NCBI RefSeq assembly: GCF_002854065.1
Contig: NZ_CP024147.1
Direction: 5' to 3' (one strand)
Source: Escherichia coli
GTDB lineage: Bacteria > Pseudomonadota > Gammaproteobacteria > Enterobacterales > Enterobacteriaceae
Length of the DNA: 64,000 bases
Shown piece after piece: positions 6,232-30,173 of the stretch; position 1 is the stretch's first letter; every line of letters starts with the position of its first letter. The position numbers and the translations under genes are program-made. The notes beneath the pieces were generated by a model. That model worked only from the letters and a program-made list of their open reading frames with translations. It was not told the DNA's origin and did no database searches.

Positions 6232-7833
6232 ATGACTGAACAGGTAACAACAACCGATGAACTGGCTTTCACAAGGCCGTATGGCGAGCAGGAGAAGCAA
6301 ATTCTTACTGCCGAAGCGGTAGAATTTCTGACTGAGCTGGTGACGCATTTTACGCCACAACGCAATAAACTTCTGGCAGCGCGCATTCAGCAGCAGCAAG
6401 ATATTGATAACGGAACGTTGCCTGATTTTATTTCGGAAACAGCTTCCATTCGCGATACAGACTGGAAAATTCGTGGTATTCCCGCGGACTTACAAGATCG
6501 TCGAGTCGAGATAACTGGCCCGGTTGAGCGCAAGATGGTGATCAACGCACTGAACGCCAATGTGAAAGTCTTTATGGCCGATTTCGAAGATTCACTGGCA
6601 CCAGACTGGAACAAAGTGATCGACGGGCAAATTAACCTGCGCGATGCGGTTAACGGCACCATCAGTTACACGAATGAAGCAGGCAAAATTTACCAGCTCA
6701 AGCCCAATCCAGCGGTTTTGATTTGTCGGGTACGCGGTCTGCACTTGCCGGAAAAACATGTCACCTGGCGTGGTGAGGCAATCCCCGGTAGCCTGTTTGA
6801 TTTTGCGCTCTATTTCTTCCACAACTATCAGGCACTGTTGGCAAAGGGCAGCGGTCCCTATTTCTATCTGCCGAAAACCCAGTCCTGGCAGGAAGCGGCC
6901 TGGTGGAGAGAAGTCTTCAGCTATGCAGAAGATCGCTTTAATCTGCCGCGCGGCACCATCAAGGCGACGTTGCTGATTGAAACGCTGCCCGCCGTGTTCC
7001 AGATGGACGAAATCCTTCACGCACTGCGTGACCATATTGTTGGTCTGAACTGCGGTCGTTGGGATTACATCTTCAGCTATATCAAAACGTTGAAAAACTA
7101 TCCCGATCGCGTCCTGCCAGACAGACAGGCAGTGACGATGGATAAACCCTTCCTGAATGCTTACTCACGCCTGTTGATTAAAACCTGCCATAAACGTGGT
7201 GCTTTTGCGATGGGCGGCATGGCGGCGTTTATTCCGAGCAAAGATGAAGAGCGCAATAACCAGGTGCTCAACAAAGTAAAAGCGGATAAATCGCTGGAAG
7301 CCAATAACGGTCACGATGGCACATGGATCGCTCACCCAGGCCTTGCGGACACGGCAATGGCGGTATTCAACGACATTCTCGGCTCCCGTAAAAATCAGCT
7401 TGAAGTGATGCGCGAACAAGACGCGCCGATTACTGCCGATCAGCTGCTGGCACCTTGTGATGGTGAACGCACCGAAGAAGGTATGCGCGCCAACATTCGC
7501 GTGGCTGTGCAGTACATCGAAGCATGGATCTCCGGCAACGGCTGCGTGCCGATTTATGGCCTGATGGAAGATGCGGCGACGGCTGAAATTTCCCGTACCT
7601 CAATCTGGCAGTGGATCCATCATCAAAAAACGTTGAGCAATGGCAAACCGGTGACCAAAGCCTTGTTCCGCCAGATGCTGGGCGAAGAGATGAAAGTCAT
7701 TGCCAGCGAACTGGGCGAAGAACGTTTCTCCCAGGGGCGTTTTGACGATGCCGCACGCTTGATGGAACAGATCACCACTTCCGATGAGTTAATTGATTTC
7801 CTGACCCTGCCAGGCTACCGCCTGTTAGCGTAA
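6232..7833 (+). CDS. aceB: Malate synthase A
   Basis: ORF 6214..7833; known protein starts [13 protein letters not shown] at the internal ATG (6232); 533 aa. Confidence 0.95.
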
Positions 7834-18485: not shown

Positions 18486-20117
18486 GTGTTAACGCTGCTT
18501 CACCTGCTTTCTGCCGTCGCCCTGCTGGTCTGGGGGACTCATATTGTTCGAACCGGCGTAATGCGCGTCTTCGGCGCGCGTTTGCGTACTGTCCTTAGCC
18601 GGAGCGTCGAAAAAAAGCCGCTCGCCTTTTGCGCGGGGATCGGCGTTACCGCACTGGTGCAGAGCAGTAATGCCACCACCATGCTGGTGACCTCGTTTGT
18701 CGCTCAGGATCTGGTAGCCCTCGCACCGGCTCTGGTGATTGTGCTGGGTGCAGATGTCGGGACGGCGCTAATGGCGCGTATTCTCACCTTCGACTTATCC
18801 TGGCTGTCACCGTTACTTATTTTTATCGGCGTGATTTTTTTCCTCGGACGCAAACAGTCACGCGCCGGGCAACTGGGCCGCGTCGGTATTGGTCTTGGGC
18901 TGATTTTGCTGGCGCTGGAGTTGATTGTGCAGGCCGTAACGCCGATCACCCAGGCAAACGGCGTTCAGGTAATCTTTGCCTCGCTGACCGGCGATATTCT
19001 GCTGGATGCGCTGATTGGCGCGATGTTCGCCATTATCAGCTACTCCAGCCTTGCTGCTGTACTGCTGACTGCGACTCTGACCGCCGCAGGCATTATCTCC
19101 TTCCCCGTGGCGCTCTGTCTGGTGATTGGTGCTAACCTCGGTTCCGGCCTGCTGGCGATGCTCAACAACAGTGCCGCCAATGCCGCAGCCCGCCGTGTCG
19201 CGCTGGGTAGTTTGCTGTTTAAGCTGGTGGGTAGCCTGATTATCCTGCCGTTTGTCCATTTGCTGGCAGAGACAATGGGGAAGTTGTCATTGCCAAAAGC
19301 GGAACTGGTGATCTATTTCCACGTCTTCTACAACCTTGTACGTTGCCTGGTCATGCTGCCATTTGTTGACCCGATGGCACGGTTTTGCAAAACGATTATT
19401 CGCGATGAACCGGAACTGGATACCCAGCTACGGCCCAAACATCTGGATGTCAGCGCGCTGGATACGCCCACGCTTGCTCTGGCGAACGCCGCGCGCGAAA
19501 CCCTGCGCATTGGCGACGCCATGGAACAGATGATGGAAGGGCTGAATAAAGTGATGCACGGCGAGCCACGGCAGGAGAAAGAGCTGCGTAAGCTGGCAGA
19601 TGATATCAACGTTCTCTATACCGCCATTAAGCTGTATCTGGCGCGGATGCCAAAAGAAGAGCTGGCGGAGGAAGAGTCGCGCCGCTGGGCGGAGATCATC
19701 GAAATGTCGCTCAACCTTGAACAGGCCTCCGATATCGTCGAGCGCATGGGGAGCGAAATTGCCGATAAATCGCTGGCAGCACGGCGGGCATTTTCGCTTG
19801 ATGGCTTGAAGGAACTGGATGCGCTCTATGAGCAATTGCTCAGTAATTTAAAACTGGCAATGTCGGTTTTCTTCTCTGGTGATGTTACCAGCGCCCGTCG
19901 TTTGCGCCGCAGCAAGCATCGCTTTCGCATTCTTAATCGCCGCTATTCCCACGCCCACGTCGATCGCCTGCATCAGCAAAACGTGCAGAGCATTGAAACC
20001 AGTTCGCTACATTTAGGCTTACTGGGAGATATGCAGCGTCTGAACTCGCTGTTTTGTTCGGTGGCTTACAGTGTGCTGGAACAGCCGGATGAAGATGAAG
20101 GACGGGACGAGTATTAA
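18486..20117 (+). CDS. yjbB: Na+/phosphate symporter family inner-membrane protein YjbB
   Basis: 543 aa, GTG start, multiple TM segments plus C-terminal PhoU-like region. Confidence 0.9.
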   Translation: MLTLLHLLSAVALLVWGTHIVRTGVMRVFGARLRTVLSRSVEKKPLAFCAGIGVTALVQSSNATTMLVTSFVAQDLVALAPALVIVLGADVGTALMARILTFDLSWLSPLLIFIGVIFFLGRKQSRAGQLGRVGIGLGLILLALELIVQAVTPITQANGVQVIFASLTGDILLDALIGAMFAIISYSSLAAVLLTATLTAAGIISFPVALCLVIGANLGSGLLAMLNNSAANAAARRVALGSLLFKLVGSLIILPFVHLLAETMGKLSLPKAELVIYFHVFYNLVRCLVMLPFVDPMARFCKTIIRDEPELDTQLRPKHLDVSALDTPTLALANAARETLRIGDAMEQMMEGLNKVMHGEPRQEKELRKLADDINVLYTAIKLYLARMPKEELAEEESRRWAEIIEMSLNLEQASDIVERMGSEIADKSLAARRAFSLDGLKELDALYEQLLSNLKLAMSVFFSGDVTSARRLRRSKHRFRILNRRYSHAHVDRLHQQNVQSIETSSLHLGLLGDMQRLNSLFCSVAYSVLEQPDEDEGRDEY

Positions 20118-20120
20118 TAC

Positions 20121-20203
20121 CGTGACCCTGTAGGCCTGATAAGACGCGTAAAGCGTCGCATCAGGCACTATGAACAAGATGCCGGATCATGCATCCGGCA
20201 ATT
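20121..20203. repeat. REP elements between yjbB and pepE
   Basis: CCTGTAGGCCTGATAAGACGCGTAAAGCGTCGCATCAGGCA ... GCCGGATCATGCATCCGGCA. Confidence 0.7.
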
Positions 20204-20206
20204 CAC

Positions 20207-20896
20207 TTAAAAACGGTGACCCGCTTCCAGCGGAACCGCTTCTTCACCGGCCTTAAACACATAGGTGGTGTTCGGGCCACCCAGCGTTGCGTGACCTTTA
20301 CTCACTGTGATCCAGTTACCTTCCGGTAGACCAATAATCGTCAGTTCTGGCGCGACGACCAGCAGTTCGCGAATACGCTGTTCACGGGTTTCACCTTTAT
20401 GGCCTTCCGGCAGCGCGTTGGTGAAGTGCGGGTTGATTTGCAACGGGAACAGATTCAGCGCATCGAAACCTTGCGGATCGACAATCGGCATATCGTTGGT
20501 GGTACGAATGGTTGGGCAAGCAAGGTTAGCGCCTGCGCTCCAGCCAATATACAGTGCGCCACGTTTAACCACGTCAGTAATTGGTGCCAGCAGCCCGCGC
20601 TCGCGGCACTGTTTCAGCAACTGGAAAGTATTACCGCCGCCGACAATCACGATCTCAGCATTTTCAATCGCGGCAACGGGATCGACAACGCTATGAATAC
20701 CGGTGACAGAAACACCCAGCGGAGCGAGAACCGCAGCCGTTTTCTCTGTGTAATCATCCCAGGTCTGCGTTACGCCAGCGAAAGGGATAAACACCGCTGA
20801 GCGGCGACCCTGCAACTGTTCAGCAATTAGCGGCAGTGCATGTTCCAGCCAGGCTTTACCCGGCAGCGTCGAGTTACTCAATAAAAGCAGTTCCAT
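20207..20896 (-). CDS. pepE: Alpha-aspartyl dipeptidase (peptidase E)
   Basis: 229 aa, [28 protein letters not shown]... Confidence 0.93.
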
Positions 20897-21277
20897 TACT
20901 TCTCCGGTTAGTAAGAAATCACGGAAGGAATGCTACCACTGCGAATTTAACCACTTACTGACATGGCTCACGATGTCACGTATTGCACAGGCGCTGAGAC
21001 TGATGACAAACACAGCATTGCCTGATGCGCTACGCTTACCTGGCCTACCAGATAACTGCAATATATTGAATTTTCAAAATTATGTAGGCCGAATAAGGCT
21101 TTATTCCGCATCCGGCATAAACAATGTGTACTTTGCCACCAATTTGAGCGCCCCTTAAGGCGCTGATGTTTTTTTATCCTTCTCGTGCACATTGGGCCGC
21201 TTCAGCAATCAGCCGCACATCAGGTCGCGAAGTTGCCGCGGCGACCAGCCAGCGACATGCAGAGTTAAGTAGCGCGA

Positions 21278-22519
21278 TTAATCATGGGAAATTGCCTCTG
21301 CATGAGTGAGCAGATATTGCTCCGCCTCACCGGACCAGATCCCCTGATGACGCGCCAGAATCGCCGCCAGTGCTTGATCCTGAATCTGCGTGAGTGACGT
21401 CAGCGGCAGGTATTTCCCGGTATACACCAGCTTTTTGCCGCCGCCGACGGCAGGCAATTCAAGCGTGGTTTCGCCCGCGGCATTCAGCCCAAGAATATGT
21501 GTTACCACTTTTGCGGCCTGCACTTTTTTCTCTTCGATCAGTTTGACCGCCGCGCGCATGTCGTCGGTATTGCCGCCTGACGTGCCCACGTAGTGGGTAA
21601 ATGCATAATGCACATCGTAGAAATTAATTGGCGCGCTGAAATGTTTATCCTGCGGTCCGGCGAAGAAATTCAGGCAACCATCTGTCGCCAGCAAGGAAGA
21701 GGCGAGAGTCACCAGTCCTTCATTAGGCACAAAGACGAAAATATCATCGAAGCCGTGACCGCCACTCAGCGCCATTAGCGTATCAAATGCTGCATCGGTG
21801 GCATTGAGATAATGAATCAGTGTTTGCGATTCTGATGGATAGTGCTTGCGCGCATAACTCAATTTATCGTTGTCGGTATCGGTAATGACGAGCAGCGACG
21901 GGTTAACGGGTCCATGCAGCGCATAATCAATCGCCAACAGTCCCATTGGTCCGGTGCCGCCGAGGATCAGCGTGCGCCCTTGCGGGCGAATCCCCATCGT
22001 GTGGTTATAACTACCTTCCTGAAGATGATAGTTGGCGTTGAACGCGCCAATCACGCAGGAAAGCGGTTCAACCAGCGAGCCTTCAAAATAGGTTTCGCCG
22101 TCGTATGCCAGCAGGCAATCTTGTTCCATGACCTCGTTGGGAATAACCACATGCGTGGCTTCGCCGCCTACCCACGGGAAGGAGTAGCCGGGGCAGTCCG
22201 GGCGGTCGGGGAGTTGCAGGTTGGCCTGAATCACATAACGCTGACCCGGCTGGAATTTGTGCTGCCACTTTTTACCCACGGCCAGAATATCGCCGCAAAA
22301 CTCGTGGCCGATGATGATTGGGTTGGTCGCCACATCGTCGGGTACTTTTTTATGGTTTTCACCCAGGTTGGCCTCTTTCCAGGAAGAGAGGCACAGGCTG
22401 TCAGTGACCACCGTCGCGAGGATTTCTTCCTCCTGCATTTCAGGAAGGTCAAAGGTTTCCAGGCGTAAATCACGTTTACCATAAAGACGCAGAGCTGTTG
22501 TTTTCATAAACCACCTCAT
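21278..22519 (-). CDS. sorE: Zn-dependent dehydrogenase, probable L-sorbose-1-phosphate reductase
   Basis: 413 aa (true start may be MKTTALRL, 4 codons in); MDR-family dehydrogenase fold; last gene of a sor-type operon. Confidence 0.8.
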   Translation of the reverse strand: MRWFMKTTALRLYGKRDLRLETFDLPEMQEEEILATVVTDSLCLSSWKEANLGENHKKVPDDVATNPIIIGHEFCGDILAVGKKWQHKFQPGQRYVIQANLQLPDRPDCPGYSFPWVGGEATHVVIPNEVMEQDCLLAYDGETYFEGSLVEPLSCVIGAFNANYHLQEGSYNHTMGIRPQGRTLILGGTGPMGLLAIDYALHGPVNPSLLVITDTDNDKLSYARKHYPSESQTLIHYLNATDAAFDTLMALSGGHGFDDIFVFVPNEGLVTLASSLLATDGCLNFFAGPQDKHFSAPINFYDVHYAFTHYVGTSGGNTDDMRAAVKLIEEKKVQAAKVVTHILGLNAAGETTLELPAVGGGKKLVYTGKYLPLTSLTQIQDQALAAILARHQGIWSGEAEQYLLTHAEAISHD

Positions 22520-22558
22520 GTTGAGCGATGGCCCCGGCAGTCGTGCCGGGGCGAAGAA

Positions 22559-23413
22559 TCAGGACAGGAAGCCCAGCGCATTGCCGATAATTCCTAAGCC
22601 AAACAGGGCGAAAATCAGCCATACCGGGTTAATTTTTTTGTTGAGCAGACGAACCATTAGTAGCGTCAGACCGAGCGCCAGCAAACCAGGGCAAAGTTGG
22701 TCGAGAATGTTCTGCACGGTCATGGTGACGGTGGAGCCATCGGCGGCATGCGTTTGTGAAACCACCAACGGTACGTTGATTGACGTCCATTTGGTGACCA
22801 GCACGCCCATCACAAACAGTCCGAGAATCGACGCGCCTTCGGTGAGTTTTTGCAGCACATTCCCGCCCATATCGCTGACGATATTCACCCCTTTGCGAAA
22901 GCCGAGCTGTAGGCCATACCACTTCATCGCCAGACGCACCGCGTTGAAAATAAAGAAGAACAGCAGCGGGCCGAGAATGTTGCCCGAAAGTGCCAGAGAT
23001 GCGCCGAGCGCGGCGGTAATCGGGCGCAGCGTTCCCCAGACCAGTGGGTCGCCAACCCCTGCCAATGGTCCCATCAGACCGACTTTGATGCCGTTAATGG
23101 TACCGTCATCAATTTCCGCGCCGTTGGCCCGCGCCTCTTCCATGGCGGCAGTGACGCCGATGACCGGGCCACATACGGCTGGCGTGGTATTGAAGAACAC
23201 CAGGTGTCGCCTGAGCGCCGCAACCTGATCCTCTTTTAATGGGTAAAGTCGCTTGATGGCGGGGATCATGTCGTAGCAAAAACCCAGCCCGTGAATACGT
23301 TCAAAGTTAAAGGACGCCTGTTGCAGGTTGGAGCGCAGAAACATGCTCACCAGATCGCTGCGTGTAATTTTTCTCTGTTCCATGATGGCTCCGTTAATCG
23401 TCAAGTTGGTCAA
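22559..23413 (-). CDS. sorM: PTS mannose/sorbose-family EIID component
   Basis: 284 aa from a TTG start, or from internal MEQRKITRSDLVSMFLRS; ManZ-like N-terminus. Confidence 0.85.
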   Translation of the reverse strand: MTNLTINGAIMEQRKITRSDLVSMFLRSNLQQASFNFERIHGLGFCYDMIPAIKRLYPLKEDQVAALRRHLVFFNTTPAVCGPVIGVTAAMEEARANGAEIDDGTINGIKVGLMGPLAGVGDPLVWGTLRPITAALGASLALSGNILGPLLFFFIFNAVRLAMKWYGLQLGFRKGVNIVSDMGGNVLQKLTEGASILGLFVMGVLVTKWTSINVPLVVSQTHAADGSTVTMTVQNILDQLCPGLLALGLTLLMVRLLNKKINPVWLIFALFGLGIIGNALGFLS

Positions 23414-24191
23414 GGGCGGTGGAGGCGGTGGCCTGGAGTTGAGGTTCAGCTTTACGCCACTGTGGATTTAGCTGGATGTAGACCAGGGCCATGATCACGC
23501 CGACGCCACCGAACGCCAGCAGACTGAGATCGAGGTAGCCACCTGCGAGGAAACCGAGGAAAAAGAAAGGCATCAAATATTTCACGCCCATCATACGTAG
23601 CACCATGGCGTAACCGACCACCACGATAAAACCGCCAGCAATCTGTAGTCCTCGGGTCACAAATTCGGGAATGGCGTTTAACATATTGCTGACCATATCG
23701 GCGCTGACGAACAGCGAGACAATCAGTGCCGGAATAGCAACGCGCAGCGCCTGCACGCCAAGCGCGGAGACATGCAGAATATCGAAAGTGCGAAACCGCG
23801 CCTCTTCCGCTGCTTTATCCGCCGCGTGCTGGAACACTACGGTGATGGTACGGGCAAACACCGTCAGCACCTGGCCTGCCGCAGCCACAGGCAACGCGAT
23901 GGCGATTCCGGTGGCGATGCTTTGCTGACCAACGATAACCAGAATGGCGGAGATTATGCTGGCGAGTGCAGAGTCCGGAGATTGCGCCGCGCCGACGTTC
24001 ATCCAGCCGAGAGCTATCAATTCCAGCGTACCACCGAGTATTATTCCGGTTTTTAAATCACCGAGAATTAAACCAATCACCGTACAGGCAATTAACGGGC
24101 GATGAGTCTGAAATTCATCCAGCACGCTGCCCATTCCGGCAATACAGGAAAAAAGAAATATAGCAATAATTTGTAGGGTACTTATTTCCAT
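23394..24191 (-). CDS. sorA: PTS mannose/sorbose-family EIIC component
   Basis: 265 aa polytopic membrane protein, ManY-like; overlaps sorM start. Confidence 0.85.
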   Translation of the reverse strand: MEISTLQIIAIFLFSCIAGMGSVLDEFQTHRPLIACTVIGLILGDLKTGIILGGTLELIALGWMNVGAAQSPDSALASIISAILVIVGQQSIATGIAIALPVAAAGQVLTVFARTITVVFQHAADKAAEEARFRTFDILHVSALGVQALRVAIPALIVSLFVSADMVSNMLNAIPEFVTRGLQIAGGFIVVVGYAMVLRMMGVKYLMPFFFLGFLAGGYLDLSLLAFGGVGVIMALVYIQLNPQWRKAEPQLQATASTALDQLDD

Positions 24192-24256
24192 GATTTGTCA
24201 CCTTTTAAGTGTCGTCATCCCTGCCTGTTAAAGCATATGTACACAGGCGCTATTAT

Positions 24257-24751
24257 TTAATTTGCGATTAACTGTTCGTTTATTTTGTCGATAATATTGA
24301 TTGAGGGATCTGACGCTACGACGCGTAAATCCAATATGACGCCAAGATTATTTAACTCATGAAATGCGTTAATATCATCATCATCTAATGAAACCGCTTT
24401 GGTTAACTGTTTTTTACCGGGCCGCCAGGCCATGCCGCCAATATTCAGGGTGCCTATTTTTACCCCCTGGCGAACCATCGCTAAGGCATCCTGTGGGCGA
24501 GTGAAAAGATAAAAAACGGTTTCGTCCTGATATTGCGGGTTGTGATAAACCGCGATGGCTTTTTCAATATTGACCACGTTAACCTTCATTCCCGGTGGCG
24601 CAGCCTGACGCAATAATGTCCGGCGAACTTCATCGTTATAAACTTCGTCATTGCAGATAATAATGCGCTGGGCGTTAGCCACTTTCGACCAGACGGTAGT
24701 GACCTGACCGTGGATCAGGCGGTCATCAATGCGGGCGAGCGTAATGTTCAT
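24257..24751 (-). CDS. sorB: PTS mannose/sorbose-family EIIB component
   Basis: 164 aa, MNITLARIDDRLIHGQV (EIIB-Man signature); ATGA overlap with sorF. Confidence 0.87.
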   Translation of the reverse strand: MNITLARIDDRLIHGQVTTVWSKVANAQRIIICNDEVYNDEVRRTLLRQAAPPGMKVNVVNIEKAIAVYHNPQYQDETVFYLFTRPQDALAMVRQGVKIGTLNIGGMAWRPGKKQLTKAVSLDDDDINAFHELNNLGVILDLRVVASDPSINIIDKINEQLIAN

Positions 24752-25158
24752 CAGAAATCCTCCTCTGTCGTTGCCAGTTGTTTCCAGACAACGCAGGATT
24801 GCTTTGCGATTTGCGTCAGGTGTTCACACAGTTCATCAACATTCATGCTGTCCTGGTTATCAACCAGTTCGAGGGCCAGCGGCAGAGAAAGGCCGCTGAT
24901 TACCCGCAGACGAGGATTGCGCATCGCAAGCATCGCTGCCGCATTCCACGGGCTGCCGCACTGTAAATCCACGGTAATCAGCCACTCATCTTGATTGTGA
25001 ATGCTTACTAACTTTTCCAGCTTTGCTACGATGTCTCCGGCGTTCTCGCCGGGCACAAATTCAACGGCTTCAACATTGGTGTTGCCGTAAACCATCTGAA
25101 CCGATTCCAGCATGGCGCAAGCTAATTTGCCGTGGGCACAAAAAATGGCGTTGACCAT
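24751..25158 (-). CDS. sorF: PTS mannose/sorbose-family EIIA component
   Basis: 135 aa, MVNAIFCAHGKLA... EIIA-Man-like. Confidence 0.85.
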   Translation of the reverse strand: MVNAIFCAHGKLACAMLESVQMVYGNTNVEAVEFVPGENAGDIVAKLEKLVSIHNQDEWLITVDLQCGSPWNAAAMLAMRNPRLRVISGLSLPLALELVDNQDSMNVDELCEHLTQIAKQSCVVWKQLATTEEDF

Positions 25159-25167
25159 AAAGCCTCC

Positions 25168-25974
25168 TTATCCGCGCGTTTTGCCGCCCGCAATGTTAGT
25201 GGTTACTCCGGTGATGTAGCTGGCGCGTTCAGACAACAGATAACAAACAAAATCAGCGACTTCTGCTAATCTTCCGGCGCGCCCAATAGGAATGGCGTTT
25301 TTGGTATAGCCTTCACGCAGCTGCTCGACGGTGATATTGCGCGTCCACGCCAGCGCCTCTTCATATTCCGGCGTGCGTAGCCCGGTTTTTTCCAGAATCC
25401 CCGGCGCGATACCGACCACACGGATACCGTGTTTACCCAGCTCTTTCGACCAGGAGCGCGTGAAGCTATTGAGCGCGGCTTTGGTAGCGGCGTAACAGCT
25501 TTGTCCTTCTGAGCCTTCCAGTCCACTTTCTGAGGAAACATTCACAATCACGCCATCATGTTGTTTGACCATCTGTCGCGCCACCGCCTGCGACATCAGA
25601 AAAACGCCTTTCTGGTTGATATTGACCATTTTTTCGAATACAGCTTCGTTGAGTTCATACTTCCCGGCAGGCGCTTTCTCATCGACCAGCAGACGCGGGA
25701 AATTGACCCCGGCGTTATTGACCAGACCGTCGATGCGACCAAAACGCTGGATAATTTCCGCTACCGTATGATTTACCTCTTTGGCGCTGGAAATATCGGT
25801 CGGCCAAAACTGATAGCCTTTATGACCTTCATATTGTCCATCGCCACCGTGAATATCGACCATCTGTACATTCGCGCCTTGTGCTAATAATTCCTCTACA
25901 ATAGCCAGACCAATACCGGATGCGCCGCCGGTGACGATAATGATTTTATCCTGCAAATTTAACCACGTTTGCAT
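25168..25974 (-). CDS. sorD: Short-chain dehydrogenase/reductase, probable D-glucitol-6-phosphate dehydrogenase
   Basis: 268 aa; TGGASGIG NAD-binding motif and YxxxK catalytic motif. Confidence 0.85.
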   Translation of the reverse strand: MQTWLNLQDKIIIVTGGASGIGLAIVEELLAQGANVQMVDIHGGDGQYEGHKGYQFWPTDISSAKEVNHTVAEIIQRFGRIDGLVNNAGVNFPRLLVDEKAPAGKYELNEAVFEKMVNINQKGVFLMSQAVARQMVKQHDGVIVNVSSESGLEGSEGQSCYAATKAALNSFTRSWSKELGKHGIRVVGIAPGILEKTGLRTPEYEEALAWTRNITVEQLREGYTKNAIPIGRAGRLAEVADFVCYLLSERASYITGVTTNIAGGKTRG

Positions 25975-26043
25975 AACAGACTCCTGATTTTAGATAATAG
26001 GGACCCGCCGTAATTTTTATTACGATAATCATCGGGAAGATTT

Positions 26044-26991
26044 TTATTTCAGTAATAGTTCAGCTGTGCTGCTATTCGTTACCAGACAATTAATATATTT
26101 TCCACGCAGTGCACCAATAATTCCGCTGTATTTTTCTTCACTCATGGCAATGCCAATTGAATATCGTGCCTGCTTTAATTTATTCATTTCGATAGAGAGT
26201 GTTTTTTCGCTCATATTCGTTTCAACCATTGCGCCGTGAATATCAAAAAAGCGCGAGCAAATATCGCCAGCAACCTGGCGGGCATTCAGGTCGTCACTCT
26301 CTTCACCACCATAAAACGCATGCCAGTTAGCGCCGTCGCGAATGGCCGGTGAGCCAATTCCCACCAGGGCGACATCCAGATTATCCCAGTAGGCAGAGAT
26401 GGTTTTAAAGTGCTGAGACTGCATGATCCCATTACGAATTAAGGGGTTATCCAGCAGAGCCGGAAAATCCGCGAGATGCGATTCCCCTTTCAGCTTCGCA
26501 GCCGCGCTGTAGGTTAATGTGTTTACGTGATAGCGGCTTTCGAGTTTACCGGACGGTCCGCCAATAATTGGTACGCAGATTAACTGCCGCGATTGCCCCG
26601 CCTGCGGCAAGTTTTCAACCAGTGCGCTCACCGCGCGACCCCAGGAAAAACCGACAATATCGCCAGGCTCCAGCAAGCGATCCAGCAGTTGCGCGCCGTG
26701 TAACCCCATCATCGCCAGTTGAGTCTCTTCATCCTCATCATTTCCCGACACCACCACAACGTCTTTCAGGCCAAACTTTTGCTTCAGTTGCTGCTCCAGC
26801 CAGAGATTTTCGTTGTAGTCATAGTTGATGGCGATGGTGACAATTCCCTGATCGCGGCCTCGTTTAAGCAAGCGGCTGATGGTGGTGCGGTAAATACCCA
26901 GTTCGCGCGCGATTTGCGCCTGCGTCATATCCTGTTCGTAATAGAGTTGGGCAATCTTCACAATCAAACGGATATCGTCACTGTTTTCCAT
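26044..26991 (-). CDS. sorC: SorC-family transcriptional regulator of the sorbose operon
   Basis: ORF 26044..27075; likely start MENSDDIRLIVKIAQ with AGGAGG RBS upstream; N-terminal HTH, C-terminal sugar-phosphate binding domain. Confidence 0.85.
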   Translation of the reverse strand: MENSDDIRLIVKIAQLYYEQDMTQAQIARELGIYRTTISRLLKRGRDQGIVTIAINYDYNENLWLEQQLKQKFGLKDVVVVSGNDEDEETQLAMMGLHGAQLLDRLLEPGDIVGFSWGRAVSALVENLPQAGQSRQLICVPIIGGPSGKLESRYHVNTLTYSAAAKLKGESHLADFPALLDNPLIRNGIMQSQHFKTISAYWDNLDVALVGIGSPAIRDGANWHAFYGGEESDDLNARQVAGDICSRFFDIHGAMVETNMSEKTLSIEMNKLKQARYSIGIAMSEEKYSGIIGALRGKYINCLVTNSSTAELLLK

Positions 26992-27338
26992 TGCCGCCTC
27001 CTGGTTCTGCACATTTGTGCAAATACGCTTTCTCACCGCTTGATCTGATATAACCCCATCATGATGGCCTTTCAAAGCGATTTTTCACTCTTTGCATGGG
27101 GAGAAATAGCGCTTTCTCTTGCACATTTGTTTCTCTGCGCAGTAGTCATCAGCACAGGTGTGCAGCGATTCGTAATATGTTGATTATCCTTATTTTGACA
27201 GGCAAATTTGCATTGTACTTCCGGAGACACTTTTGTGATAAAAGGCGTGGCAGATCACATTTAATTTCGACGTTGCCGCATAACCCTGTTTTTCCCCGCT
27301 AAGAGGTACGGTATATTCCGCGTTTTACAGGAGAATTT

Positions 27339-28211
27339 ATGCTGCCCGACTCATCAGTCCGTTTAAATAAATACATCAGCGAAAGCGGAATTTGCTCACG
27401 CCGCGAAGCGGATCGCTATATCGAGCAAGGCAATGTGTTCCTTAATGGCAAGCGAGCCACCATTGGCGATCAGGTGAAACCCGGCGACGTTGTGAAAGTA
27501 AACGGTCAGTTGATTGAACCTCGGGAAGCCGAAGATTTGGTACTTATCGCCCTGAACAAGCCCGTCGGTATTGTCAGCACCACCGAAGATGGCGAGCGCG
27601 ATAACATTGTCGATTTTGTTAACCACAGCAAACGCGTGTTCCCGATTGGCCGCCTGGATAAAGACTCCCAGGGGCTGATTTTCCTCACCAATCACGGCGA
27701 TCTGGTGAATAAGATCCTCCGTGCGGGTAACGATCATGAGAAAGAGTATCTGGTGACGGTCGATAAACCGATTACCGATGAATTTATTCGTGGTATGGGG
27801 GCGGGGGTGCCGATCCTCGGGACGGTGACTAAAAAGTGCAAAGTCAAAAAAGAAGCGCCGTTTGTCTTCCGCATTACCCTGGTGCAGGGGCTGAACCGTC
27901 AGATCCGGCGCATGTGCGAGCATTTCGGCTATGAAGTGAAAAAGCTGGAACGTACGCGCATTATGAACGTCAGCTTAAGCGGCATTCCGCTGGGAGAATG
28001 GCGCGATTTAACCGACGACGAGCTTATCGATCTCTTTAAGCTCATTGAAAATTCCTCTTCCGAGGCGAAGCCCAAAGCGAAGGCCAAACCGAAAACAGCG
28101 GGCATCAAACGTCCAGTCGTTAAGATGGAAAAAACGGCGGAAAAAGGCGGTCGCCCGGCGTCCAACGGTAAGCGTTTTACCTCGCCGGGGCGTAAAAAGA
28201 AGGGGCGCTAA
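27339..28211 (+). CDS. rluF: 23S rRNA pseudouridine synthase RluF
   Basis: 290 aa; S4 domain plus RsuA-type catalytic domain; basic Lys/Ala-rich C-terminal tail. Confidence 0.93.
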
Positions 28212-28484
28212 TCAGCGCCTGCCGCGCGTCGACGTATTTGCTGACCAGCTAAATGACGCTTCAGGATCCGGTTTATAAGCCTGCTTTTTCTTCAATTGGC
28301 GGGCTTTTTTTGCTTCAGCCTCACGCTCAACCATTAATTTATCGATGTAATCTTTCTTAATGCTGTTGGTTTCGGAGTTGGTCAGTACGCGACCATGCGC
28401 AATCCGCGCCCGATCCAGCAGTGTTTTAAGTTCACGCTGCTCGCGTTCAGTCATCTCTTTTTGGGTAATACGGGGGAGTGCCAT
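28212..28484 (-). CDS. yjbD: Small conserved protein YjbD
   Basis: 90 aa, MALPRITQKEMTEREQRELKTLLDRARIAHG... Confidence 0.85.
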   Translation of the reverse strand: MALPRITQKEMTEREQRELKTLLDRARIAHGRVLTNSETNSIKKDYIDKLMVEREAEAKKARQLKKKQAYKPDPEASFSWSANTSTRGRR

Positions 28485-28582
28485 GATGGTGCCCTCAGTG
28501 AGCCAGAGAGTTCAGTGTACGGGAATTCGTTTGCGAGCAGAACTGATAATATTCCTTTGTTCTCTTCGGTAATGACTCCAAC

Positions 28583-29086
28583 TTATTGATAGTGTTTTAT
28601 GTTCAGATAATGCCCGATGACTTTGTCATGCAGCTCCACCGATTTTGAGAACGACAGCGACTTCCGTCCCAGCCGTGCCAGGTGCTGCCTCAGATTCAGG
28701 TTATGCCGCTCAATTCGCTGCGTATATCGCTTGCTGATTACGTGCAGCTTTCCCTTCAGGCGGGATTCATACAGCGGCCAGCCATCCGTCATCCATATCA
28801 CCACGTCAAAGGGTGACAGCAGGCTCATAAGACGCCCCAGCGTCGCCATAGTGCGTTCACCGAATACGTGCGCAACAACCGTCTTCCGGAGCCTGTCATA
28901 CGCGTAAAACAGCCAGCGCTGGCGCGATTTAGCCCCGACGTATCCCCACTGTTCGTCCATTTCCGCGCAGACGATGACGTCACTGCCCGGCTGTATGCGC
29001 GAGGTTACCGACTGCGGCCTGAGTTTTTTAAATGGCGGAAAATCGTGTTGAGGCCAACGCCCATAATGCGGGCGGTTGCCCGGCAT
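28583..29086 (-). CDS. insB: IS1 InsB (transposase C-terminal part, expressed as InsAB' by -1 frameshift)
   Basis: 167 aa ORF matching IS1 InsB. Confidence 0.9.
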
Positions 29087-29280
29087 CCAACGCCATTCAT
29101 GGCCATATCAATGATTTTCTGGTGCGTACCGGGTTGAGAAGCGGTGTAAGTGAACTGCAGTTGCCATGTTTTACGGCAGTGAGAGCAGAGATAGCGCTGA
29201 TGTCCGGCAGTGCTTTTGCCGTTACGCACCACCCCGTCAGTAGCTGAACAGGAGGGACAGCTGATAGAAACAGAAGCCAC
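29005..29280 (-). CDS. insA: IS1 InsA (transposition repressor / transposase N-terminus)
   Basis: 91 aa, [40 protein letters not shown]... Confidence 0.9.
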
Positions 29281-29330
29281 TGGAGCACCTCAAAAACACC
29301 ATCATACACTAAATCAGTAAGTTGGCAGCA

Positions 29331-30029
29331 TCACCCGTTGGTGCTTTCCCAGCTTAATGCCGCTGAGGTGGTTTTTATCATGACTTCTGTTCGGTAGCCT
29401 GCATCTTTGAGTTTTTTTAATGTTTGTAGCGGCGTAGCGGCATTACGAAATGTTCCTTCGACAACAATATTGAGTTTATTGGCTATGGCCCTCTCTATTG
29501 CACGTTCGACCGTTTCGCCGGAAAATTTTGCCGTATGGGTAACAAAATCGTCGCCATAAGTTTGATATATATAATTAAAATCAGGGTGTAGAAATCTGAA
29601 ATCATCACCATTAATAATCATTATATTATTCTTTGTTTCCCTTTTTGCTAATTCGATTAGGGCGGATTTTCCGGCTCCTGGTTGTCCACCTAAAACAAAA
29701 CCAATGGGACTCTGCTGGGATGTGACGTCATGGTTTGTCAGACGCTGCCAAATAGAATCAAAAGACGCTTTATTTTCTGAATGCGCAGTATTATTAAATT
29801 CACGCTGATACTTTTTTCTGACCTGCTGGAGGCGTAACTTTTCCTGTGTAAAATCAACAAGTTCTGCTTGAGTGGAATAAAGATTGTCGCGATAGCTGAC
29901 TAATTGTGATAGCTCATCGTCTGAGTCCTGAACTTGTGAGGAAAAACAACTGTCGACGATATTTGATAAAAACGCGATGCACTGACTGGCGCCGTTTAAA
30001 AGTGCATCCTTTTCCATTAAAGTAGCCAT
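29331..30029 (-). CDS. Zeta-toxin-like P-loop kinase domain protein, reading frame runs into the IS1 end (probably C-terminally truncated)
   Basis: ORF 29331..30035 with likely ATG at 30029 preceded by AGGAG; Walker A GGQPGAGKS, then INGDDFR and VEGTFR motifs; AT-rich; stop codon lies inside IS1 terminal repeat. Confidence 0.55.
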   Translation of the reverse strand: MATLMEKDALLNGASQCIAFLSNIVDSCFSSQVQDSDDELSQLVSYRDNLYSTQAELVDFTQEKLRLQQVRKKYQREFNNTAHSENKASFDSIWQRLTNHDVTSQQSPIGFVLGGQPGAGKSALIELAKRETKNNIMIINGDDFRFLHPDFNYIYQTYGDDFVTHTAKFSGETVERAIERAIANKLNIVVEGTFRNAATPLQTLKKLKDAGYRTEVMIKTTSAALSWESTNG

Positions 30030-30173
30030 TAACACTCCTGTTAAATGATATTTTTCGGTGATTGTAATACTGTTCTACAGGAGTGATTTTGCTTTTCAGA
30101 TATTATTTAATCTATGTTTTCAGTGAGGATGGCGTATAACAATTGGTGAGCGTTATACGCCAGTAGGGAAATA

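What the first reader, a model, noticed from the sequence alone, without database searches (positions are those of the whole stretch)
21278..27075. Complete L-sorbose-type PTS operon (sorCDFBAME) inserted between pepE and rluF
Seven co-directional genes encode a SorC regulator, an SDR dehydrogenase, mannose-family EIIA/EIIB/EIIC/EIID and a Zn-dependent dehydrogenase, in the sorCDFBAME order described for Klebsiella and some E. coli. K-12 has pepE directly next to rluF. The genes are tightly packed, with sorF/sorB and sorA/sorM overlaps that suggest translational coupling. The pepE-proximal junction (20897-21277) contains REP-like sequence, a possible recombination scar.
Basis: partly seen in the sequence, partly recalled or inferred. 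Interest (0 to 1): 0.35.

Follow-up and report, generated by a model that had tools for sequence, protein, structure and literature searches.

The report
Known E. coli L-sorbose utilisation operon
This is the well-known seven-gene operon that lets about half of E. coli strains take up and burn the sugar L-sorbose; it is intact here and ordinary, and comparison with other genera indicates that K-12 lost it rather than this strain gaining it.

Summary
The finding is real and is correctly named. Window 21278-26991 (minus strand) holds seven intact genes, sorC-sorD-sorF-sorB-sorA-sorM-sorE, between pepE and rluF. K-12 has pepE next to rluF.

The operon is already known. It is colinear with the E. 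coli CFT073 operon, whose clone lets DH5alpha grow on L-sorbose, and its proteins are 93-99% identical to CFT073's. SorC and SorB are 87% and 86% identical to the solved Klebsiella proteins. Of 5426 complete E. coli genomes, 2868 carry it, always at this chromosomal site.

- sorC most likely starts at 26991, not 27075.
- The sorA/sorM overlap comes from taking the longest ORF. The real gap is 10 nt. Only sorF/sorB overlap, by 1 nt.
- "Inserted" has the direction wrong. The operon sits at the same rluF/pepE site in Citrobacter, Klebsiella, Raoultella, Pseudocitrobacter and other Escherichia species. It has normal GC content and no mobility genes. The sor-negative allele is one nearly invariant 80-bp filler, which points to a deletion.
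- The REP element is an old BIME, not a recombination scar.
- Window 21174-21285 is the remnant of an eighth gene, an sdhL-type shikimate-dehydrogenase-like gene. It is intact in 177 E. coli genomes and in most other genera.

Interest is low.

The parts
26044..26991 (-). sorC: SorC-family transcriptional regulator of the operon (315 aa)
   Evidence: Pfam Sugar-bind domain plus an N-terminal HTH. 87.0% identical over all 315 residues to K. pneumoniae SorC, PDB 2W48. AGGAGG lies 7 nt upstream of the ATG at 26991. RefSeq calls the same 948-nt gene on 100%-identical DNA.
25168..25974 (-). sorD: SDR-type D-glucitol(sorbitol)-6-phosphate dehydrogenase (268 aa)
   Evidence: NCBIfam NF004817, sorbitol-6-phosphate dehydrogenase, 500 bits against a cutoff of 304. 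Pfam adh_short. 98.1% identical to CFT073 c4986.
24751..25158 (-). sorF: EIIA of the mannose/sorbose PTS family (135 aa)
   Evidence: TIGR00824 EIIA-man, 147.6 bits against a cutoff of 98. The conserved N-terminal His-Gly is at His9. The gene starts 9 nt after the sorD stop.
24257..24751 (-). sorB: EIIB-Sor (164 aa)
   Evidence: Best solved relative is K. pneumoniae IIB-Sor, 1NRZ: 305 bits and 86.2% identity, against 171 bits for IIB-Man. The RIDDRLIHGQV phosphorylation loop has His14. Its ATG overlaps the sorF TGA by 1 nt.
23394..24191 (-). sorA: EIIC-Sor membrane subunit (265 aa)
   Evidence: TIGR00822 EII-Sor, 425 bits against a cutoff of 340. Pfam PF03609.
22559..23383 (-). sorM: EIID-Sor membrane subunit (274 aa)
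   Evidence: TIGR00828, 472 bits against a cutoff of 293. The ATG at 23383 has GGAG upstream and lies 10 nt after the sorA stop. The TTG at 23413 has no ribosome-binding site. RefSeq nt.
21278..22507 (-). sorE: L-sorbose-1-phosphate reductase, MDR (zinc-type alcohol dehydrogenase) superfamily (409 aa)
   Evidence: Weak Pfam ADH_N and ADH_zinc_N matches. Cys39, His68-Glu69 (GHE), EPLSC and GGTGPMG motifs are present, with no four-Cys structural zinc site. RefSeq names it sorE on identical DNA. 98.5% identical to CFT073 c4981.
21174..21285 (-). Remnant (pseudogene) of an eighth operon gene, an sdhL-type shikimate 5-dehydrogenase-like gene. It keeps the first ~57 nt and last ~55 nt around a ~700-bp internal deletion, and has a premature TAA at codon 7.
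   Evidence: Alignment to the intact genes of E. coli CUVET16-465 and E. whittamii gives 89-92% identity over the 5' part and 87-89% over the 3' part. The intact gene is NF009202, 464 bits. Its ATG overlaps the sorE stop by 8 nt (ATGATTAA).
21147..21164 (.). GC-rich hairpin (AGCGCC-CCTTAA-GGCGCT) just downstream of the sdhL remnant, probably marking the operon's 3' end
   Evidence: Terminator-like hit, scored on the plus strand only. The hairpin is conserved in E. whittamii downstream of intact sdhL. There is no U-tract in the operon's sense, so a terminator role is inferred, not shown.
21019..21117 (.). BIME: two REP elements in inverted orientation (21019-21048 and 21084-21117) around a 35-bp linker
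   Evidence: Inverted repeats I1 and I2. One arm matches the REP consensus with 2 mismatches, against 0 expected by chance. It is colinear with E. whittamii and Escherichia sp. at the same place.
26992..27303 (-). sor regulatory region, present only in sor-positive genomes. Inferred sigma-70 promoter: -35 TTGAAA at 27070-27075, 17-nt spacer, -10 TATATC at 27047-27052. Operator-like palindromes TGCACA-N2-TGTGCA at 27008-27021 and 27151-27164, and a half-site at 27119-27129.
   Evidence: Alignment of 16 taxa shows an invariant GGTTATATCAGAT core and a TGCACAAATGTGCA palindrome invariant in all 16. The only two palindrome matches in the 64-kb window, with 0 and 1 mismatch, both lie here. About 0.14 matches with one mismatch or fewer are expected by chance. 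Function is inferred, not tested.
20987..20990 (.). Left (pepE-side) limit of DNA absent from sor-negative genomes
   Evidence: Alignments of the window against sor-negative STEC1590 and K-12.
27303..27304 (.). Right (rluF-side) limit. Only the last 35 nt before the rluF ATG are shared with sor-negative genomes.

Best explanation
This is the chromosomal L-sorbose catabolic operon of E. coli, sorCDFBAME, intact and at its usual site near metH at about 91 min.

Pathway, taken from the Klebsiella and E. coli literature rather than re-tested here:
- A four-protein mannose-family PTS permease takes up L-sorbose and phosphorylates it to L-sorbose-1-phosphate. The four proteins are SorF (EIIA), SorB (EIIB), SorA (EIIC) and SorM (EIID).
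- SorE reduces L-sorbose-1-phosphate to D-glucitol-6-phosphate.
- SorD oxidises that to D-fructose-6-phosphate, which enters glycolysis.
- SorC, the first gene, controls the operon.

Regulation, inferred from sequence conservation: transcription starts at a conserved promoter about 50 nt upstream of sorC. SorC acts through TGCACA-N2-TGTGCA palindromes, one between the promoter and the sorC ribosome-binding site and one or two upstream.

Evolution: the operon is ancestral at the rluF/pepE site in Enterobacteriaceae. It originally carried an eighth gene, an sdhL-like dehydrogenase translationally coupled to sorE. Most E. coli, including this strain, keep only a deletion remnant of that gene. K-12-like strains, mostly phylogroups A and B1, lost the whole operon in what looks like a single deletion event.
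For: Gene content and starts:
- Gene content, order and family assignments.
- Ribosome-binding-site-backed starts and intact reading frames.

Identity to characterised proteins and operons:
- SorC is 87% identical to Klebsiella SorC (2W48) and SorB is 86% identical to Klebsiella IIB-Sor (1NRZ). SorB scores far above IIB-Man, IIB-Lev and Aga IIB.
- The window aligns gap-free over 9321 bp at 96.9% with CFT073. All seven proteins have the same length and are 93.3-99.4% identical.
- The cloned CFT073 operon c4981-c4987 lets DH5alpha grow on L-sorbose (PMC2831201).
- Knock-outs in ST131 and a knock-in in ST10, together with induction by L-sorbose, confirm function in E. coli (PMC12817954).
- RefSeq annotates 100%-identical DNA as sorE and the other sor genes.

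Distribution:
- 2868 of 5426 complete genomes carry it, single copy, never on a plasmid.

Ancestral position:
- Most of the 35 Enterobacterales loci recovered, including those from other Escherichia species, Pseudocitrobacter, Citrobacter, Klebsiella, Raoultella, Enterobacter and Cedecea, show rluF-sorCDFBAME-(sdhL)-pepE-yjbB.
- Sor protein identities parallel those of the flanks.
- 29 of the 35 carry sdhL.

Derived sor-negative state:
- The 80-bp filler is single copy in 2557 genomes and 99% identical or more in 2545. Filler-bearing and sor-positive genomes add up to 5425 of 5426.

sdhL remnant.

Promoter and operator conservation.
Against:
- Some lineages, such as Shigella, keep sor DNA but are Sor-negative (PMC2831201). 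The nearest relative, CUWW06, has IS1 inside sorB. Loss of function is therefore common in this operon.
- The origin of the 80-bp filler in sor-negative strains is unexplained. It matches nothing in any sor locus examined, so a simple deletion does not account for it.
- The promoter and operators are predictions. The generic promoter scan did not report this promoter and found no more sites than chance would give.
- The hairpin downstream of the remnant has no U-tract in the operon's sense.
Confidence: 0.93

Rival explanations
1. The operon is a horizontally acquired genomic island that was inserted between pepE and rluF in the ancestor of sor-positive strains, and the REP sequence is the junction scar.
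For: There is a presence/absence polymorphism within E. coli. K-12 and 2557 other genomes have pepE next to rluF. The sor-negative spacer contains 80 bp that cannot be derived from the island, so the empty site is not a trivial deletion product.
Against: - The operon occupies the same site in many other genera, and its divergence is commensurate with the flanking genes.
- GC content equals the background.
- There are no integrase, transposase, tRNA or border repeats.
- The BIME is colinear with other Escherichia species and lies about 30 nt inside the boundary, not at it.
- The sor-negative filler is nearly invariant, while sor-positive haplotypes differ by 1-3%. The empty allele is therefore the younger one.
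- Published surveys find sor in more than 86% of every phylogroup except A and B1 (PMC12817954).
Confidence: 0.05
2. The genes encode a mannose-family PTS and dehydrogenases for a different substrate, such as fructose, mannose or another ketose. On this view 'sorbose' is a mislabel carried over from annotation.
For: The NCBIfam and Pfam models for the four PTS subunits are generic 'mannose/fructose/sorbose' models and cannot tell substrates apart. An ST131 sorAM deletion still grew on sorbose through other transporters (PMC12817954), which shows overlap between these systems.
Against: - The proteins are 93-99% identical to the CFT073 operon, which on its own confers L-sorbose growth on DH5alpha.
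- A sorE deletion abolishes the sorbose growth benefit, and the seven genes are the most strongly sorbose-induced genes.
- SorB and SorC are nearest to the characterised Klebsiella sor proteins.
Confidence: 0.01
3. The operon is structurally intact but phenotypically silent in this strain. Possible causes are a regulatory defect, the reported temperature sensitivity of SorD, or polar effects.
For: Sor-negative phenotypes occur despite retained sor DNA in Shigella. The CFT073 clone grew slowly with a long lag in DH5alpha (PMC2831201). A knock-in strain grew only after 48 h.
Against: All seven ORFs are full length, with conserved phosphorylation and cofactor motifs. The conserved promoter and operator blocks are intact in the window. 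No IS element or frameshift lies inside the operon, unlike in CUWW06.
Confidence: 0.08

Closest known systems
E. coli CFT073 sor operon c4981-c4987 (functionally verified; PMC2831201)
   Same: Same seven genes, same order, same chromosomal site and same gene lengths. The alignment is gap-free at 96.9% nucleotide identity and includes the sdhL remnant and the BIME. Proteins are 93.3-99.4% identical. The published cloning primers match window 21241-21270 and 27309-27337.
   Different: Only allelic substitutions. SorF is the most variable, with 9 of 135 residues different. The 2025 survey also found that sorF splits into several clusters.
Klebsiella pneumoniae sorCDFBAME operon (Sprenger & Lengeler 1984; Wehmeier & Lengeler; structures 2W48 SorC and 1NRZ IIB-Sor)
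   Same: Gene order and pathway. SorC is 87.0% and SorB 86.2% identical to the Klebsiella proteins. The chromosomal position between rluF and pepE is shared with the Klebsiella species examined: grimontii, michiganensis, oxytoca, spallanzanii and indica.
   Different: The Klebsiella species examined keep an intact eighth gene (sdhL-like) after sorE. The window keeps only a remnant of about 110 nt. K. pneumoniae itself was not among the loci recovered.
E. coli ManXYZ, B. subtilis LevDEFG and E. coli Aga PTS (other mannose-family EII systems)
   Same: Same four-domain architecture (IIA, IIB, IIC, IID) and the same Pfam and TIGRFAM families.
   Different: They are much more distant. SorB scores 171, 142 and 76 bits against IIB-Man, IIB-Lev and Aga IIB, compared with 305 bits against IIB-Sor. 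IIA and IIB are separate polypeptides here, whereas ManX is a fused IIAB. Only this locus is linked to SorE, SorD and SorC.
E. coli ST648-type sor locus with intact sdhL (PMC12817954; e.g. CUVET16-465)
   Same: Same seven sor genes at the same site.
   Different: It carries the intact 270-aa sdhL-like gene, which is co-induced by L-sorbose according to the paper, and it lacks the BIME. The window has the ~700-bp deletion and keeps the BIME. The paper calls sdhL an ST-specific insertion. The cross-genus comparison here indicates it is the ancestral state.

Membership tests
Enterobacterial L-sorbose operon sorCDFBAME | Seven co-directional genes in the order regulator, SDR dehydrogenase, EIIA, EIIB, EIIC, EIID, MDR reductase | tested here: met
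   RefSeq annotation of identical DNA.
Enterobacterial L-sorbose operon sorCDFBAME | Proteins orthologous to the characterised Klebsiella Sor proteins rather than to Man, Lev or Aga paralogues | tested here: met
   SorB scores 305 bits against 1NRZ and 171, 142 and 76 bits against Man, Lev and Aga. SorC scores 612 bits against 2W48 over its full length. Identities are 86-87%. Only SorB and SorC could be compared directly with Klebsiella sequences. The other five rest on CFT073 identity and the paper's table.
Enterobacterial L-sorbose operon sorCDFBAME | Chromosomal position near metH/iclR (about 91 min), between pepE and rluF | tested here: met
   The window context is aceBAK-arpA-iclR-metH-yjbB-pepE-[sor]-rluF-yjbD-lysC-pgi. 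The same site is used in 2865 complete genomes.
Enterobacterial L-sorbose operon sorCDFBAME | Confers uptake of and growth on L-sorbose, inducible by L-sorbose | not testable with these tools
   Shown for near-identical operons in PMC2831201 (CFT073 clone in DH5alpha) and PMC12817954 (ST131 and ST648 induction, knock-outs, knock-in). The window's genes are intact.
Enterobacterial L-sorbose operon sorCDFBAME | Phosphoryl-relay histidines in EIIA and EIIB, and cofactor motifs in SorE and SorD | tested here: met
   SorF has His9-Gly. SorB has His14 in RIDDRLIHGQV. SorE has Cys39, GHE 67-69, EPLSC and GGTGPMG. SorD matches adh_short over its full length. The roles of these residues come from family knowledge, not from an assay.
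Horizontally acquired genomic island | Atypical base composition relative to the flanks | tested here: not met
   GC content is 51.2% for the island and 50.6% for the window.
Horizontally acquired genomic island | Integrase or transposase, a tRNA target, or direct repeats at the borders | tested here: not met
   No such ORFs lie in 20897-27338. There are no border repeats and no RNA family hit. The nearest IS1, at 28568-29335, lies beyond rluF and yjbD and is unrelated.
Horizontally acquired genomic island | Absent from the orthologous site in related species | tested here: not met
   It is present at the rluF/pepE-yjbB site in other Escherichia species, Pseudocitrobacter, Citrobacter, Klebsiella, Raoultella, Enterobacter and Cedecea.
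REP/BIME extragenic repeat | Imperfect palindromes of about 30-35 bp matching the REP consensus, paired in inverted orientation, extragenic and multi-copy in the genome | tested here: met
SdhL-type shikimate dehydrogenase-like gene (NF009202) as eighth sor gene | An intact ORF of about 270 aa matching NF009202, starting at ATGATTAA across the sorE stop | tested here: not met
   The window keeps only ~57 nt of the 5' end and ~55 nt of the 3' end, with a stop at codon 7. The intact gene scores 464 bits in CUVET16-465. The window therefore carries a pseudogene remnant, not a member of this family.

The most novel reading that the evidence does not exclude
The enterobacterial sor operon is ancestrally an eight-gene unit. 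Its last gene, an SdhL-type shikimate-dehydrogenase-like enzyme translationally coupled to sorE, has an unknown role in or beside L-sorbose catabolism.
- Most E. coli lost this gene through one ~700-bp deletion.
- K-12-like strains lost the whole operon in one event that left an unexplained 80-bp filler and gave rluF a different upstream region.
- The recent literature reads sdhL as an ST648-specific insertion, which would then be the wrong way round.
- SorC would act through the conserved TGCACA-N2-TGTGCA palindromes predicted here.
Probability: 0.75. Interest if true: 0.2.

Novelty: already known. Interest (0 to 1): 0.08.

Why it matters
The operon is textbook-level accessory metabolism. It was mapped in the 1980s and 1990s, cloned and verified from CFT073 in 2010, and surveyed in more than 44,000 genomes with knock-outs in 2025. 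Finding it here adds nothing new about function.

It does have practical value. It is a phylogroup-correlated marker, rare in phylogroups A and B1, and it predicts a Sor-positive phenotype for this strain.

The small additions from this check may help whoever follows up the 2025 paper's open remark about the flanking regions:
- The operon was lost from K-12-like strains, not gained by the others.
- An eighth gene (sdhL-like) is ancestral and has decayed in most E. coli.
- A candidate promoter and candidate SorC operators are proposed.

Tried and rejected
- An exact-sequence look-up of Klebsiella SorC (the 2W48 sequence) in the contig collection found nothing. I used the genome-contig scan with SorE instead.
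- I looked for an origin of the 80-bp sor-negative filler inside the sor locus of the window and 36 enterobacterial loci. There was no match, apart from a weak 35-nt similarity upstream of rluF in one Citrobacter. Its origin remains unexplained.
- The generic promoter and terminator scan gave no more sites than the shuffled controls. Its only upstream promoter-like hit, at 27241-27212, has a -10 hexamer that is not conserved in other genera, so I rejected it in favour of the conserved TATATC block.
- An Rfam search of 20100-28600 returned no hit, so no riboswitch or sRNA is involved.
- I considered the plus-strand terminator-like hairpin at 21147-21164 as the end of an unannotated plus-strand gene. 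I rejected this because the hairpin is the conserved sequence downstream of sdhL in E. whittamii, and its T-run is partly the sdhL stop-codon region.
- A literature search for a defined SorC operator found nothing in the held library.
- My first guess at the CFT073 coordinates missed the locus. The second guess hit it.

Full report
**Observation**

ORF listing of 18.5-30 kb shows seven co-directional minus-strand ORFs between pepE (20207-20896, minus) and rluF (27339-28211, plus). NCBIfam and Pfam assign them, in transcriptional order, as follows:
- a SorC/DeoR-type regulator with a Sugar-bind domain and an HTH;
- an SDR 'sorbitol-6-phosphate dehydrogenase' (NF004817, 500 bits against a cutoff of 304);
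- mannose-family EIIA, EIIB, EIIC and EIID, each above its curated cutoff;
- an MDR-type dehydrogenase with weak ADH_N and ADH_zinc_N matches.

All seven reading frames are uninterrupted. The core observation is therefore correct.

**Start codons and overlaps**

Using ribosome-binding sites and the RefSeq calls on 100%-identical DNA (strain CUWW06), the likely genes are:

| Gene | Coordinates | Length |
|---|---|---|
| sorC | 26044-26991 | 315 aa |
| sorD | 25168-25974 | 268 aa |
| sorF | 24751-25158 | 135 aa |
| sorB | 24257-24751 | 164 aa |
| sorA | 23394-24191 | 265 aa |
| sorM | 22559-23383 | 274 aa |
| sorE | 21278-22507 | 409 aa |

The ATG at 26991 has AGGAGG upstream and gives exactly the length of Klebsiella SorC.
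- sorF and sorB overlap by 1 nt (ATGA).
- sorD/sorF and sorA/sorM are 9 and 10 nt apart.
- The claimed sorA/sorM overlap exists only with a TTG that has no ribosome-binding site.
- Tight packing, and hence possible translational coupling, still holds.

**Identity**

- SorB's best solved relative is K. pneumoniae IIB-Sor (1NRZ, 305 bits, 86.2% identity). This is well above E. coli IIB-Man (171 bits), B. subtilis IIB-Lev (142 bits) and Aga IIB (76 bits).
- SorC aligns end to end with K. pneumoniae SorC (2W48, 612 bits, 87.0% identity).
- The window aligns without a single gap over 9321 bp at 96.9% with E. coli CFT073. All seven proteins have the same length and are 93.3-99.4% identical.
[quoted passage not shown] The paper explicitly calls it SorCDFBAME (PMC2831201). 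Its cloning primers match window 21241-21270 and 27309-27337.
- A 2025 study found induction by L-sorbose, made sorAM and sorE knock-outs and an ST10 knock-in, and surveyed more than 44,000 genomes. It found sor in more than 86% of every phylogroup except A (9.6%) and B1 (12.1%) (PMC12817954).
The operon is sor.

**Mechanism**

The pathway below is established for Klebsiella and E. coli and is inferred for this strain:
- EII-Sor (SorF, SorB, SorA, SorM) imports L-sorbose and phosphorylates it to L-sorbose-1-P.
- SorE reduces that to D-glucitol-6-P.
- SorD oxidises that to D-fructose-6-P.
- SorC regulates the operon.

The sequence shows the expected motifs:
- SorF has His9-Gly.
- SorB has His14 in RIDDRLIHGQV.
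- SorE has Cys39, GHE 67-69, EPLSC and GGTGPMG, and no four-Cys structural zinc site.

'Zn-dependent' is therefore plausible for a catalytic zinc only. This is an inference.

**Distribution and boundaries**

- Of 5426 complete E. coli genomes, 2868 carry the sor-specific segment. It is single copy, always chromosomal, and 2865 hold it in full.
- K-12 MG1655 has pepE and rluF 211 bp apart.
- Alignment with sor-negative genomes puts the limits at about 20987-20990 and at 27303/27304.
- The sor-negative spacer is not an empty site. It holds 80 bp with no counterpart in any sor locus examined.
- That filler is single copy in 2557 genomes and 99% identical or more in 2545 of them. Filler-bearing and sor-positive genomes are mutually exclusive and add up to 5425 of 5426.

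**Insertion or deletion?**

One genome-contig scan with SorE returned 35 Enterobacterales loci. Mapping the window's proteins onto them shows rluF-sorCDFBAME-...-pepE-yjbB at the same site in:
- E. whittamii, E. albertii and Escherichia sp.;
- Pseudocitrobacter and several Citrobacter;
- Klebsiella grimontii, michiganensis, oxytoca, spallanzanii and indica;
- Raoultella, Enterobacter spp. and Cedecea.

Further points from the comparison:
- Sor protein identities track those of the flanks. In Citrobacter, SorE is 90-92%, RluF 91-93% and YjbB 94% identical. In Klebsiella, SorE is 85-86%, RluF 93-95% and YjbB 90% identical.
- Island GC content is 51.2% against 50.6% for the window.
- There are no mobility genes, no tRNA, no border repeats and no Rfam hit.

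Together with the near-invariance of the filler allele, this indicates an ancestral operon and a single, relatively recent loss that now dominates phylogroups A and B1. 'Inserted between pepE and rluF' describes the difference from K-12 but has the history backwards.

**The pepE-proximal region**

The REP call is right.
- Positions 21019-21048 and 21084-21117 are two inverted REPs around a 35-bp linker, that is, a BIME.

It is not a junction scar.
- It lies about 30 nt inside the boundary.
- The whole stretch 21227-20890 is colinear at 87-89% identity with E. whittamii, an outlying E. coli and Escherichia sp. MOD1-EC7003.

The real scar is different.
- 177 E. coli genomes carry a 270-aa gene whose ATG overlaps the sorE stop (ATGATTAA). 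So do 29 of the 35 enterobacterial loci.
- That gene matches NF009202, 'shikimate 5-dehydrogenase' of the SdhL type, at 464 bits.
- The window retains its first ~57 nt, with a TAA at codon 7, and its last ~55 nt around a ~700-bp deletion (21174-21285).
- CFT073 shares this junction exactly: its alignment with the window is gap-free. About 2690 genomes appear to share it, since the sampled sor-positive genomes without sdhL matched the segment in a single piece.
- The 2025 paper noted sdhL next to sor in ST648, co-induced by sorbose, and treated it as an ST-specific insertion. The cross-genus data here suggest it is the ancestral eighth gene.
- The gene is dispensable for growth on sorbose, because the CFT073 clone lacks it.

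**Regulatory region (inference)**

I aligned the 260 nt upstream of sorC from 16 taxa. Three features stand out.
- There is a conserved GGGTTATATCAGATCA block at 27041-27056 on the minus strand, whose GGTTATATCAGAT core is invariant. In the window, its TATATC (27047-27052) lies 17 nt from TTGAAA (27070-27075), which makes a plausible sigma-70 promoter.
- The palindrome TGCACAAATGTGCA (27008-27021) is invariant in all 16 taxa. It lies between that promoter and the sorC ribosome-binding site.
- A second palindrome lies at 27151-27164, with a half-site at 27119-27129.

These two palindromes are the only matches to TGCACA-N2-TGTGCA with two mismatches or fewer in the 64-kb window. About 0.14 matches with one mismatch or fewer are expected by chance. 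They are good candidates for SorC operators, but nothing here tests binding, and I found no published operator in the held library.

One consequence follows. Only 35 nt upstream of rluF are shared between sor-positive and sor-negative strains, so the rluF promoter region differs between the two alleles.

**Verdict**

This is a correctly identified, intact and entirely known operon. Its novelty class is 'already known' and its interest is low. The check adds coordinate corrections, removal of one spurious overlap, a reversed polarity for the presence/absence polymorphism, recognition of the sdhL remnant, and a candidate promoter and operator set.

Noticed in passing
window 28568-29335 (IS1) and 29331-30035 (minus-strand ORF): A 768-bp IS1 sits between yjbD and lysC with no 9-bp target duplication (flanks gttctcttc and cgttggtgc). 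It abuts a zeta-toxin-family ORF that matches only profile positions 10-140 of 199, so that ORF is truncated. The nearest relative, CUWW06, has slipin and DNA-polymerase-beta-superfamily (nucleotidyltransferase) genes between yjbD and this IS1, and they are missing here. This looks like an IS1-mediated adjacent deletion. K-12 has only 252 bp between yjbD and lysC, so this is a second variable spot next to the sor locus.
   Followed up: partly
L001 7158-8429 (E. coli CUWW06, the 100%-identical relative): In CUWW06 an IS1 interrupts sorB, which RefSeq annotates as two pseudogene fragments. The window's sorB is intact. The operon is being inactivated independently in close relatives.
   Followed up: no
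L002 2395-2474 (sor-negative E. coli; K-12 equivalent in L004 around 6240-6320): The 80-bp sequence that replaces the 6.3-kb sor segment in sor-negative strains has no detectable source in any sor locus examined. It is nearly invariant across 2557 genomes. Its origin is unexplained.
   Followed up: partly
window 27304-27338 compared with L002 2475-2509: Only the last 35 nt before the rluF start codon are shared between sor-positive and sor-negative genomes. rluF must therefore be transcribed from different upstream sequences in the two allele classes.
   Followed up: no
window 27227-27236 and neighbouring blocks, about 240 nt upstream of sorC: Further blocks in the rluF-sorC spacer are conserved across genera: ACAAAAGTGT, TGCAAyTTTG and GAATCA on the minus strand. 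Their role is unknown. They could belong to the divergent rluF promoter or to sor activation.
   Followed up: no
L035 and L037 (Enterococcus crotali, E. ureilyticus); L038-L049 (Gilliamella): Enterococcus carries the same sorC-D-F-B-A-M-E order, with SorE, SorA and SorM 64-73% identical to the E. coli proteins. Gilliamella (a bee-gut genus) has sorFBAME with sorC downstream and no adjacent sorD. The cassette is much more widely distributed than Enterobacteriaceae.
   Followed up: no
H70, E. coli HS-01 (NZ_CP172817.1, 4104076-4108230): One genome matches only 8% of the sor segment, at 93.7% identity in five pieces. Its annotation reads 'sugar-binding domain-containing protein' and 'PTS sorbose transporter subunit IIA'. 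It is a divergent or decayed sor locus.
   Followed up: no
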